Made by a program: the position numbers
Shown here: piece after piece, positions 58,740-60,746 of the stretch
How positions within the stretch are numbered: the stretch's first letter is position 1
Layout: each line of letters starts with the position of its first letter
Source of the DNA: Podarcis vaucheri
Lineage: Eukaryota
Direction: 5' to 3' (one strand)
Length of the DNA: 64,000 nt
Assembly (NCBI GenBank): GCA_965113315.1
Contig: OZ220370.1

Positions 58740-58801
<62 letters not shown>

Positions 58802-60693
58802 TTTCGTAGATTTTCACGGGTACAGGAATGCAGGTTTTGCTGTCTTCGGGTGTCTTCCCGTGTAAGAGTCGGGGTGTCTGTGCGACGTTTCGACGAGGTC
58901 TCACTCGTCATCTTCAGGCTGGTGCTTTCGGCTTCTTGTTACTGGAACAGAGCAGAGTCTGGTGTTTGAGTTCCTATAAATACTGTTGAGGGGTGTGGTG
59001 TATAGCCTCCAACGTTCTGGGCAGAGAGGAAGTTCCTAGATTAGTGTGCCTTTTCTTCTTTTGTTCCTTAATTACTTGAGGGATATCTTGGGTGATTTCA
59101 TGAGTGATATTCTGAATACCACTGGGTGGGTCATTAAGTGTAGATTAGTTGCTAAAGCTTTCGTGTCTTGACCTCTTGAGCTTGTGAAGAGTTTTTCTGA
59201 GAAGATGGCTGTGCTGCATTTAGTTGTGCTCTGGCTTGGCTTCGTGTATAGGGGCGAGCTGTGGTTTTGTGCCTTGTGCCAGCCAGATCTGTGTAGGGAT
59301 TGCAGGGGGGTGCAGCATCCGGAGGTGCCACTATAGTTTGGCTACTGGATGGAGTCTGTAATATGTCTGTGGAGAGGGTCTGGGTTTGGGTCTGGTATGG
59401 TTGATTGGTGACGGCGTTCTGTGTGCCTCTGGTTCTGGTGTCGGTTTTTGTGGGGAGGGCTAATTTCCAGATGTCTGGCAGGCGGGACGTGTCGTCACGC
59501 TTGTTCATGTTGTGAGGGTGCTTCTCTATCTCGATGGCTTCCATGATTATTCTCTTGTGGTGATGTTCCATGTTAAAGAGCAATTTGGAATCTGCAAAAT
59601 TAATTTCGTGTCCTGTTTCTTTCATGTGTTGGAAAAGAGAGGAAGTTTTTTCTTCTTTTTTGACGGCATTCTTGTGTTCTGCGATACGTGCATTTATTCG
59701 TCCCCAACCAAAAAATAGCCAATATCCTCAGAAACCCAAAAGACAAAATCCAGCTGGAAAACCAAGGGGTCTATGAAATACCCTGCAAAGTCTGCCCAGC
59801 CACGTACATTGGACAAACAAACAGACGAATAAATGCACGTATCGCAGAACACAAGAATGCCGTCAAAAAAGAAGAAAAAACTTCCTCTCTTTTCCAACAC
59901 ATGAAAGAAACAGGACACGAAATTAATTTTGCAGATTCCAAATTGCTCTTTAACATGGAACATCACCACAAGAGAATAATCATGGAAGCCATCGAGATAG
60001 AGAAACACCCTCACAACATGAACAAGCGTGACGACACGTCCCGCCTGCCAGACATCTGGAAATTAGCCCTCCCCACAAAAACCGACACCAGAACCAGAGG
60101 CACACAGAACGCCGTCACCAATCAACCATACCAGACCCAAACCCAGACCCTCTCCACAGACATATTACAGACTCCATCCAGTAGCCAAACTATAGTGGCA
60201 CCTCCGGATGCTGCACCCCCCTGCAATCCCTACACAGATCTGGCTGGCACAAGGCACAAAACCACAGCTCGCCCCTATACACGAAGCCAAGCCAGAGCAC
60301 AACTAAATGCAGCACAGCCATCTTCTCAGAAAAACTCTTCACAAGCTCAAGAGGTCAAGACACGAAAGCTTTAGCAACTAATCTACACTTAATGACCCAC
60401 CCAGTGGTATTCAGAATATCACTCATGAAATCACCCAAGATATCCCTCAAGTAATTAAGGAACAAAAGAAGAAAAGGCACACTAATCTAGGAACTTCCTC
60501 TCTGCCCAGAACGTTGGAGGCTATACACCACACCCCTCAACAGTATTTATAGGAACTCAAACACCAGACTCTGCTCTGTTCCAGTAACAAGAAGCCGAAA
60601 GCACCAGCCTGAAGATGACGAGTGAGACCTCGTCGAAACGTCGCACAGACACCCCGACTCTTACACGGGAAGACACCCGAAGACACCAAAACC

Positions 60694-60746
<53 letters not shown>

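What the first reader, a model, noticed from the sequence alone, without database searches (positions are those of the whole stretch)
58797..60698. ~1.9-kb near-perfect palindrome built from a head-to-head Penelope-like retroelement between CYP7A1 and the downstream CpG island
Seen: the two 875-bp arms (58828-59702 and 59824-60698) are reverse complements, and I found only two mismatches by eye. A 121-bp spacer (59703-59823) encoding the N-terminal part of the GIY-YIG domain separates them. The junction sequence TTCGTC can be read as belonging to both arms. Established: Penelope-like elements often form inverted or partial-tandem, 5'-truncated insertions. Inference: this is one very recent insertion made by a fold-back or template switch. 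It could extrude a cruciform, act as a fragile site, or yield an ~875-bp dsRNA hairpin (endo-siRNA or ADAR substrate) that silences the family.
Basis: partly seen in the sequence, partly recalled or inferred. Interest (0 to 1): 0.7.

Follow-up and report, generated by a model that had tools for sequence, protein, structure and literature searches.

The report
Inverted Penelope-like retroelement insertion in lizard
The 1.9-kb palindrome is real, but it is the ordinary footprint of a Penelope-like retrotransposon that landed in a TA microsatellite upstream of a lizard CYP7A1 gene, with two truncated copies joined head to head.

Summary
Arms 58828-59702 and 59824-60698 are 875 nt, reverse-complementary with exactly 2 mismatches, and 121 nt apart.

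The unit is the 3' end of an RT + GIY-YIG Penelope-like element (PLE). It is 94% identical in protein to a 735-aa Podarcis muralis protein, so the host is a squamate, not human.

Both outer ends abut an (AT)n microsatellite. The left copy alone carries 28 extra element-derived bases, the PLE "tail". The right copy alone carries the 121-nt spacer. Neither arm can therefore be a simple copy of the other.

Published work describes all of these as standard PLE traits: an adjacent inverted 5'-truncated copy, a 30-40-bp tail at one end, and a TA-repeat insertion bias (PMC8557442, PMC3846280). A lizard PLE protein cleaves and extends both target strands from two nearby internal start sites in vitro (PMC11167929).

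Best reading: one young insertion made by reverse transcription primed from both cleaved strands. This fits better than a fold-back.

Cruciform, fragile-site and hairpin-RNA roles are untested. Assembly correctness, family copy number and DNA-level family divergence could not be checked.

The phenomenon is already known and interest is low.

The parts
58742..58799 (.). (AT)29 microsatellite, left half of the target site
   Evidence: Tandem Repeats Finder: period 2, 29 copies, 100% matches
58800..58827 (-). 28-nt 'tail': extra 3'-terminal element sequence present only on the left (inverted) copy
   Evidence: Lies outside the inverted repeat. On the minus strand it continues the frame MTSETSSK...QNLH with SCTRENLRK. 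An independent protein, P0034, matches through these codons (71% over 34 aa, library-wide E 2.2e-4) and then runs into a dinucleotide-repeat translation.
58828..59702 (-). Left arm: inverted, 5'-truncated PLE copy (C-terminal part of the endonuclease ORF, 3' UTR/pseudo-LTR)
   Evidence: 875 nt, 2 mismatches to the right arm. The minus-strand ORF 59152-59727 is identical in protein to the right copy from RINARIAEHK onward.
59703..59823 (+). Spacer: 121 nt of element sequence present only in the right copy, coding the start of the GIY-YIG domain (GVYEIPCKVCPATYIGQT)
   Evidence: Alignments to P0001 and P0010 begin at NQKIAN, about 59704-59706.
59824..60698 (+). Right arm: rest of the right-hand, 5'-truncated PLE copy (the whole right copy is 59703-60698, 996 nt)
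59703..60374 (+). Remnant of the PLE ORF (endonuclease domain and C-terminal region, stop at 60372-60374)
   Evidence: 94% identity over 208 aa to residues 476-683 of P0001, a 735-aa protein carrying RVT_1 and GIY-YIG. Pfam GIY-YIG E 2.4e-4, 21.8 bits against a cut-off of 22.6.
60609..60642 (+). Hammerhead-ribozyme-like core in the pseudo-LTR part (CUGAAGA, one unpaired U, 6-bp stem II, GAAAC-GUC). The mirror copy lies at 58884-58917 on the minus strand.
   Evidence: My own relaxed descriptor finds only these 2 sites in the window on both strands; 100 shuffles give a mean of 0.04. The architecture fits passages of PMC4209133. Rfam gave no hammerhead match.
60615..60698 (+). ATG at the start of stem II plus the first 28 codons of an ORF contained in the pseudo-LTR. 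The left copy (58800-58911, minus strand) has 37 codons because of the tail.
   Evidence: Translations. The same layout is described for the Anolis element PAc and for rotifer Pen2a.
60697..60741 (.). (AT)22.5 microsatellite, right half of the target site, followed by (AC)n
   Evidence: sequence

Best explanation
This is one young insertion of a Penelope/Poseidon-type Penelope-like retroelement (PLE) into an (AT)n microsatellite. The site is intergenic, about 12 kb upstream of the first P450-matching exon of a lizard CYP7A1 gene.

Inferred mechanism, in order:
1. The element's GIY-YIG endonuclease cut both strands of the AT repeat.
2. Each 3' end primed reverse transcription of element RNA. 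One start was at an internal site 84 nt into the ORF that begins in the pseudo-LTR (right copy). The other was 28 nt further on, at +112 (left copy, which therefore carries the 'tail').
3. Both cDNAs stopped early, after 996 and 903 nt.
4. The two cDNA 3' ends were joined with little or no homology, and each was completed by copying the other.

The result is two 5'-truncated copies head to head. The locus itself most probably does nothing; it is a neutral, non-autonomous remnant without a reverse-transcriptase domain.

Shown here: the anatomy, the family assignment, the AT-repeat target, and the element origin of the tail. Inferred: the order of events, and the use of two templates or two units of a multimeric RNA.
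For: - Arms: 875 nt with 2 mismatches.
- Family: the ORF is 94% identical to RT + GIY-YIG proteins of lizards.
- Target: both 3' ends abut (AT)n.
- Unique sequence in each copy: the spacer occurs only in the right copy and the 28-nt tail only in the left.
- The tail is element sequence with a recurrent end point. P0034 matches through the tail and then enters a microsatellite translation.
- The pseudo-LTR part is family sequence. The ORF of P0010 reads through it to ...KHQPEDDE*, which overlies the CUGAAGAUGACGAGUGA core.
- No complementarity between the spacer ends.
- Literature, passages read: an inverted 5'-truncated copy next to PLE insertions, a 30-40-bp tail often at only one end, and TA-repeat bias (PMC8557442). 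A 31-bp tail on one of the inverted pLTRs, with the pLTR containing the first codons of the ORF (PMC3846280).
- Literature, main text read: the Anolis PLE protein cleaves and extends both strands, starts internally at two adjacent sites 111-118 nt into the ORF, and the tail is the sequence between them (PMC11167929). The ends here lie at +84 and +112 from the ATG at 60615.
- Youth: CpG o/e is 0.54 in the palindrome against 0.34 for the whole window.
Against: - No read data, so the assembly is unverified.
- No second family copy in the window and no eukaryotic genome collection on hand. DNA-level family divergence, copy number and the exact 5' junction therefore stay unmeasured.
- The tail is flanked by GCAT...GC|AT. 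A later 28-nt deletion from the right end, or a fold-back followed by such a deletion, is not excluded.
- The tail is 28 nt, just under the published 30-40 bp.
- Support for the tail rests on one ORF of unnamed origin (34 aa, E 2.2e-4). A word-based search with the same region found nothing.
- Rfam finds no hammerhead.
- Pfam GIY-YIG is just below its curated cut-off.
- The in vitro work used the element's own ORF-pLTR junction as target, not (TA)n.
Confidence: 0.7

Rival explanations
1. Fold-back (self-priming) in a single event. One cDNA, or an antisense template, snapped back on itself and the reverse transcriptase copied the nascent strand. 2013.
For: - The near-identity of the arms is what self-copying predicts.
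- PMC3846280 (passages) argues for self-priming from the many inverted PLE structures with palindromes at the junction.
- The right copy, which is the longer one, could in principle template the left arm with a 121-nt loop.
Against: - The left arm carries 28 nt of element sequence beyond the outer end of its supposed template.
- The spacer ends have no complementarity to seat a snapped-back 3' end, and there is no palindrome at the junction.
- Rescue needs an extra step: filler, or a 28-nt deletion between the GCAT repeats.
Confidence: 0.15
2. Assembly artefact: a chimeric fold-back read, or a mis-join inside the AT repeats, created or misplaced the palindrome.
For: - PLE tandem and inverted structures are said to cause assembly problems (PMC8557442).
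- AT microsatellites on both sides are weak anchors.
- No reads could be examined.
Against: - The palindrome is internal to the contig.
- It is bounded by non-complementary unique flanks and AT arrays of unequal length, 29 against 22.5 units.
- It is asymmetric (tail and spacer) and has 2 mismatches.
- A fold-back read would mirror the flank as well.
Confidence: 0.05
3. A normal single-copy insertion, followed later by a DNA-level inverted duplication (replication template switch or repair of a hairpin-capped break).
For: Low arm divergence fits any recent duplication.
Against: - The duplicate would have to gain 28 nt of element sequence absent from the original, and end exactly at a recurrent PLE terminus next to (AT)n.
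- No host sequence is duplicated.
Confidence: 0.04
4. Two independent insertions of the same family, in opposite orientation, into the same AT microsatellite.
For: The family prefers TA repeats, so repeated hits on one array are conceivable.
Against: - No AT repeat or other target DNA is left between the two 5' ends.
- The arms differ at 2 of 875 nt and share the same reading-frame difference relative to P0001 and P0010 near 60340.
- The closest relatives among 30 database hits are 94% identical in protein.
Confidence: 0.02

Closest known systems
Canonical endonuclease-positive Penelope-like elements of the Penelope/Poseidon clade, in particular PAc (Poseidon of Anolis carolinensis; PMC11167929)
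   Same: - C-terminal GIY-YIG domain with two Cys inside the core and His residues after it.
- RT upstream of it in the closest relative.
- Hammerhead-like core whose stem II holds the ATG.
- Insertion ends about 84 and 112 nt into that ORF, against 111-118 in PAc.
- A tail at one end, an AT-rich target, and an inverted 5'-truncated partner copy.
   Different: - This copy has no RT and no direct pseudo-LTR pair; it is two truncated 3' ends only.
- The tail is 28 nt rather than 30-40.
- Clade placement rests on features, not on a tree. The PAc sequence is in a supplement that I could not open.
Twin priming of LINE-1 (inversion with 5' truncation; recalled from Ostertag and Kazazian 2001, not read here)
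   Same: Both strands of the target serve as primers for reverse transcription, and the two cDNAs are joined in the middle. This gives an inverted 5' part.
   Different: - In L1 the two parts are different, adjoining stretches of one RNA, and the 3' end carries poly(A).
- Here both arms are the same 875 nt, so two templates or two units of a multimeric RNA are needed.
- There is no poly(A), and initiation is internal.
Self-primed inverted PLE structures of Adineta vaga (PMC3846280)
   Same: Inverted pLTR-bearing copies placed head to head, an optional 31-bp tail on one inverted pLTR, and a pLTR that includes the first codons of the ORF.
   Different: Those junctions carry palindromes and the inverted part is usually only a pLTR. 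Here the junction has no palindrome, and the inverted part is 875 nt including coding sequence.

Membership tests
Penelope-like elements (EN+ canonical) | C-terminal GIY-YIG endonuclease with the CCHH-type motif | tested here: met
   Pfam GIY-YIG E 2.4e-4, 21.8 bits, just under the 22.6 cut-off. GVYEIPCKVCPATYIGQT...H...H is seen in the translation. Relatives are named GIY-YIG domain-containing proteins, and 2 of the 23 near-length hits carry precomputed PF01541.
Penelope-like elements (EN+ canonical) | PLE-type reverse transcriptase in the same ORF | tested here: inconclusive
   Absent from the window copy, which is 5'-truncated at about 59703. The 94%-identical relative P0001 has RVT_1 (E 4.1e-16) upstream of the same endonuclease region. 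PLE-specific RT motifs and a phylogeny were not examined.
Penelope-like elements (EN+ canonical) | Direct pseudo-LTRs (partial tandem) | tested here: not met
   No direct repeat of at least 30 nt in 57500-62000. Expected for copies truncated far downstream of the 5' pLTR, so this does not argue against membership.
Penelope-like elements (EN+ canonical) | Adjacent inverted 5'-truncated copy | tested here: met
   The feature is described in PMC8557442.
Penelope-like elements (EN+ canonical) | [quoted passage not shown] | tested here: met
   28 nt at 58800-58827, at the left end only. Element origin is supported by P0034. Slightly shorter than the published range.
Penelope-like elements (EN+ canonical) | Hammerhead ribozyme motif in the pLTR | tested here: inconclusive
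   No Rfam hammerhead at E up to 1 over 3.5 kb or E up to 10 over 181 nt. My own relaxed descriptor hits only the two arms, against 0.04 expected. Helix I would be only 2 bp by eye. Cleavage was not tested.
Penelope-like elements (EN+ canonical) | AT-rich or (TA)n target | tested here: met
   (AT)29 and (AT)22.5 abut the two 3' ends. A target-site duplication cannot be read inside a microsatellite.
LINE-1-type twin priming product | Inverted and direct parts are adjoining, non-overlapping stretches of one RNA; poly(A) at the 3' end | tested here: not met
   The two parts overlap over 875 nt. There is no poly(A) at either end.
Neptune-clade PLEs | CX2-5CxxC linker upstream of GIY-YIG (as described in PMC8557442) | tested here: not met
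   No such Cys motif in the roughly 50 residues before GVYEIPC in P0001, P0010 or P0012. Judged by eye only.

The most novel reading that the evidence does not exclude
The palindrome is transcribed across both arms, either from an antisense promoter in an outer pseudo-LTR or by read-through. This would give an ~875-bp hairpin RNA that is diced into small RNAs and silences the still-young PLE family in the lizard germline. On this reading the element's own two-strand insertion mode regularly plants its own silencer. Nothing here excludes it. The RNA would fold as a hairpin (873 inter-arm pairs, MFE about -1820 kcal/mol), but no expression or small-RNA data were available. The sense promoters expected in the pseudo-LTRs point outward.
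Probability: 0.07. Interest if true: 0.55.

Novelty: already known. Interest (0 to 1): 0.15.

Why it matters
Little for biology at large: this is a textbook PLE insertion footprint.

Its modest value is as a clean natural example. The two arms of one insertion use the two alternative internal start sites, and both target strands were extended. That is what the 2024 in vitro work on an Anolis PLE predicts for events in vivo.

A genome-wide tally of such pairs could decide between two-strand priming and self-priming. The tally would record which arm carries the tail, and whether the inner junction shows microhomology or a palindrome.

For annotators it is a reminder that such palindromes near genes (here upstream of CYP7A1) are transposon structure, not regulatory hairpins, and that they are places where assemblies need checking.

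Tried and rejected
- **Rfam.** Searches of 58000-61500 (E up to 1) and 60520-60700 (E up to 10) gave no hammerhead. They gave only sub-threshold miRNA/snoRNA matches caused by the AT/AC repeats. I set those aside as microsatellite artefacts.
- **Other copies in the window.** blastn and tblastn of the unit and its ORF found only the two arms. Within-window family divergence could therefore not be measured.
- **N-terminal/tail peptide, word-based search (longer proteins).** Nothing found: 3 candidates, none scored.
- **N-terminal/tail peptide, exhaustive HMMER search.** 2 hits. P0033 is a tandem-repeat protein matching only residues 6-25, and I did not use it for the tail argument.
- **BLASTP of the tail peptide against P0005.** Only a weak match, E 0.017, at the C-terminus of P0005. 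Not used.
- **RNA fold of the 3' end with the tail.** A stem-loop spans the two insertion ends, but the z-score is only -1.77, with 12 of 200 shuffles folding as well. Suggestive only.
- **Literature search on lizard PLEs** (Penelope, Poseidon, lizard, Podarcis). No paper on this family in lacertids appeared among the 8 listed.
- **Literature search on Penelope siRNA and hairpins**. One review was read in passages (PMC9138309). It reports Penelope-derived siRNAs in transgenic flies, not from inverted insertions.
- **CYP7A1.** Searched exon by exon only; the joined spliced model was left out.
- **Bacterial/archaeal genome-contig collection.** Not used, because it cannot hold this family.
- **Left unchecked.** Paper supplements are closed too, including the PAc consensus and Figs S1-S2 of PMC11167929, which would have allowed a direct comparison of tail and start sites.

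Full report
**1. Observation**

The window has no N. The repeat finder reports one inverted pair at 58828-59702 / 59824-60698, 875 nt, with 121 nt between the arms. A base-by-base comparison gives exactly 2 mismatches: 58840 vs 60686 and 59521 vs 60005. That is 99.77% identity.

From the translations, the second mismatch is a synonymous Lys codon. The first changes Q/H in a short ORF near the 3' end.

Across the whole window this is the only long, close-range inverted repeat. The other 4 inverted pairs of at least 120 nt are 150-261 nt, 80-93% complementary and 8.8-55 kb apart.

**2. What the repeated unit is**

The + strand of spacer plus right arm holds an open frame, 59664-60374. Pfam gives a weak GIY-YIG match: E 2.4e-4, 21.8 bits against a cut-off of 22.6, at residues 35-74, which is window 59766-59885.

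A search among longer proteins found 7 hits. The best is a 735-aa "uncharacterized protein" of Podarcis muralis (P0001). It is 94% identical over 208 aa, covering its residues 476-683. P0001 carries RVT_1 (E 4.1e-16) upstream of the same GIY-YIG region.

A near-length search gave 23 more hits:
- 94% for one unnamed protein, P0010
- 68-85% for four Phrynocephalus forsythii proteins
- lower values for others, including beetles

Reverse transcriptase followed by a C-terminal GIY-YIG endonuclease is the architecture of canonical Penelope-like elements (PMC8557442 abstract; PMC11167929 main text). PLEs are stated to be absent from mammals, and the best hits are lizards. I therefore take the contig for squamate, not human.

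Homology to P0001 and P0010 starts at NQKIAN, about 59704-59706. This is exactly the border between the left arm and the spacer.

The anatomy is therefore:
- a right copy, 59703-60698, 996 nt, sense on the + strand and 5'-truncated inside the ORF
- a left copy, 58800-59702, sense on the - strand and 5'-truncated 121 nt further downstream

The two are joined by their truncated 5' ends, head to head, with the 3' ends pointing outward.

**3. The ends**

Both outer ends abut an AT microsatellite: (AT)29 at 58742-58799 and (AT)22.5 at 60697-60741. (AC)n follows on the right. A target-site duplication cannot be read inside such a repeat.

The ends are not symmetric. The right copy ends ...AACCTGCAT directly before (AT)n. 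The left copy continues for 28 more nt (58800-58827) before (AT)n.

Near each 3' end there is a motif CUGAAGA-U-GACGAG-(6 nt)-CUCGUC-GAAAC-GUC. It lies at 60609-60642 on the + strand and 58884-58917 on the - strand.
- A relaxed descriptor of my own finds only these two sites in the window on both strands. The descriptor is CUGANGA, 0-1 unpaired base, a 4-9-bp stem with a 3-8-nt loop, then GAAA. One hundred dinucleotide-preserving shuffles give a mean of 0.04 hits with a stem of at least 5 bp.
- The architecture matches passages on PLE minimal hammerheads (PMC4209133): a long helix II, an unpaired base at its 5' end, and a tiny palindromic helix III.
- Rfam gave no hammerhead match in two searches, and helix I would be only 2 bp by eye. 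I call it hammerhead-like and not proven.

An ATG sits at the start of stem II, at 60615. The frame runs 28 codons to the right copy's end and 37 codons to the left copy's end.

The same layout is described elsewhere:
- For the Anolis element PAc, the ORF begins at stem II and the cut site is 26 nt downstream. Reverse transcription starts 111-118 nt into the ORF, and the optional tail is the sequence between two adjacent start sites (PMC11167929).

Here the two ends lie at +84 and +112.

**4. Is the 28-nt stretch element sequence?**

This is the key point for the mechanism.

A word-based search with the peptide found nothing. The exhaustive HMMER search with the 37-aa peptide found 2 proteins.

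P0034 (169 aa, unnamed origin) matches query residues 3-36 at 71% identity. The library-wide E-value is 2.2e-4 and the pairwise E-value is 8e-13. The match includes the tail codons, HSCTRENLR against HTCTCENLR. After ENLR, P0034 runs into HTHTHT..., the translation of a dinucleotide repeat, and then into unrelated sequence.

P0034 therefore looks like an ORF called across another insertion of a related element that ends at the same place (within a few nt), again next to a microsatellite. This supports two conclusions: the tail is element-derived, and its end is a recurrent insertion terminus.

The other hit, P0033, is a tandem-repeat protein matching only residues 6-25. I did not use it.

Independently, the ORF of P0010 reads through the 3' UTR to ...KHQPEDDE*, which overlies the hammerhead-like core. 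The pseudo-LTR part is therefore conserved family sequence as well.

**5. Mechanism**

Each copy holds element sequence that the other lacks: the spacer on the right and the tail on the left. Neither arm can therefore be a plain copy of the other. This counts against a simple fold-back and against a later DNA-level inverted duplication.

The spacer ends show no complementarity; the first 14 inward positions are all mismatches. There is no palindrome at the junction.

It is only the inner end of the left arm. Three of 3 relatives read F-C-A/T where the window reads F-V-P.

The published in vitro behaviour of a lizard PLE gives a direct alternative. The protein cleaves and extends both strands of an AT-rich target, starting internally at two adjacent sites, and is predicted to be a dimer.

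I therefore propose the following sequence of events:
1. Both strands of the AT repeat were cut.
2. Each 3' end primed cDNA synthesis on element RNA, one from each start site.
3. Both cDNAs stopped early.
4. Their 3' ends were joined with zero or one base of homology.
5. Each strand was completed on the other.

Steps 1-5 are inferred. The anatomy they explain is shown.

Two caveats apply:
- GCAT flanks the tail on both sides (GCAT...GC|AT). A later 28-nt deletion at the right end could mimic the asymmetry.
- The self-priming hypothesis of PMC3846280 remains a live rival; I give it 0.15.

**6. One event, and young**

- No target DNA lies between the two 5' ends.
- The arms differ at 2 of 875 nt.
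- From, the arms share the same reading-frame difference relative to P0001 and P0010 near 60340.
- The closest of the 30 database relatives are 94% identical in protein.
- CpG o/e is 0.54 in the palindrome against 0.34 for the whole window.

With neutral rates of about 1-2 x 10^-9 per site per year, two differences suggest an age of the order of a million years or less. The rates are recalled, not taken from a call, so this is a rough inference. Reverse-transcriptase errors or template heterogeneity could also account for the two differences.

**7. Context and function**

P450 exons lie on the minus strand at 40788-46522; 4 of the 136 ORFs scanned matched. One exon, 43305-43952, has cholesterol 7-alpha-monooxygenase as its best match among solved structures, E 2.8e-81.

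I searched exon by exon only and left the joined spliced model out.

The palindrome lies about 12 kb upstream of the first P450-matching exon. It is about 2.8 kb from a CpG-rich stretch that starts near 63.5 kb.

The copy has no RT and no 5' pLTR, so it is not autonomous. If transcribed end to end it would form a hairpin with 873 inter-arm pairs, but nothing shows that it is transcribed. The sense orientation of both pseudo-LTR parts points outward.

A 121-nt spacer should make cruciform extrusion much less likely than in a spacer-free palindrome. This is recalled general knowledge and was not tested.

I regard the locus as a neutral transposon remnant.

**8. Comparison with what is known, and novelty**

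All the features are described for PLEs in the papers read: the inverted 5'-truncated partner, a tail at one end, an AT-repeat target, and a hammerhead-like motif overlapping the ORF start.

The locus differs from LINE-1 twin priming (recalled, not read). There the two parts come from different, adjoining stretches of one RNA and the 3' end carries poly(A).

The finding is an instance of a known phenomenon.

**9. What stayed unchecked**

- Assembly correctness, because no reads were available.
- Genome-wide copy number, DNA-level family divergence and empty sites.
- Expression and small RNAs.
- The PAc consensus and supplementary figures of PMC11167929, because supplements are closed.

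Noticed in passing
P0033 (protein; no window coordinates): A 1164-aa protein of unnamed origin has 16 tandem stretches similar to residues 6-25 of the peptide just 3' of the hammerhead-like core. It may be a translated tandem array of PLE- or hammerhead-derived repeats (retrozyme-like).
   Followed up: no
window 59703-60371 versus beetle proteins P0017, P0019, P0025, P0028: The lizard endonuclease region is 56-64% identical to proteins of Pyrocoelia pectoralis and Leptinotarsa decemlineata. 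This is high for hosts so far apart. It could reflect strong conservation of the domain or horizontal transfer.
   Followed up: no
window 2136-2382, 20253-20599, 48859-49092, 57828-58088 (inverted): A SINE-like repeat of about 250 nt occurs in four copies at 88-93% identity. One copy lies only about 650 nt left of the AT repeat that received the PLE.
   Followed up: no
window 21148-22410 (-) and 3638-4405 (-): Two retroelement RT ORFs (RVT_1 E 9.7e-36 and 1.2e-7) share a 300-nt stretch at 98% identity (3625-3924 / 21135-21434). This points to a second young retroelement family, unrelated to the PLE (no tblastn match).
   Followed up: partly
window 28725-29027 (+): An ORF ending in the start of a UBX domain (E 1.3e-6), probably an exon of a UBX-domain gene next to CYP7A1. 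From memory, UBXN2B is the neighbour in other vertebrates.
   Followed up: no
window 60330-60625, compared with P0001 and P0010: Relative to both 94%-identical relatives, the window copy changes reading frame near 60340 and again further on in the 3' region. Both arms share these differences. Which state is ancestral is unknown.
   Followed up: partly
window 58733-58813 and 60677-60805: Sub-threshold Rfam matches to mir-297, mir-1277, mir-466 and others (best 54.6 bits against a gathering score of 90). They are caused by the AT/AC microsatellites and are not miRNA genes.
   Followed up: yes
window 58800-58925 (-): The predicted RNA fold places the two insertion ends (+84 and +112) in and just after a stem-loop closed by CACGGG/CCCGUG. 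This recalls the AC-rich stem-loop start site of PAc. The z-score is only -1.77.
   Followed up: partly
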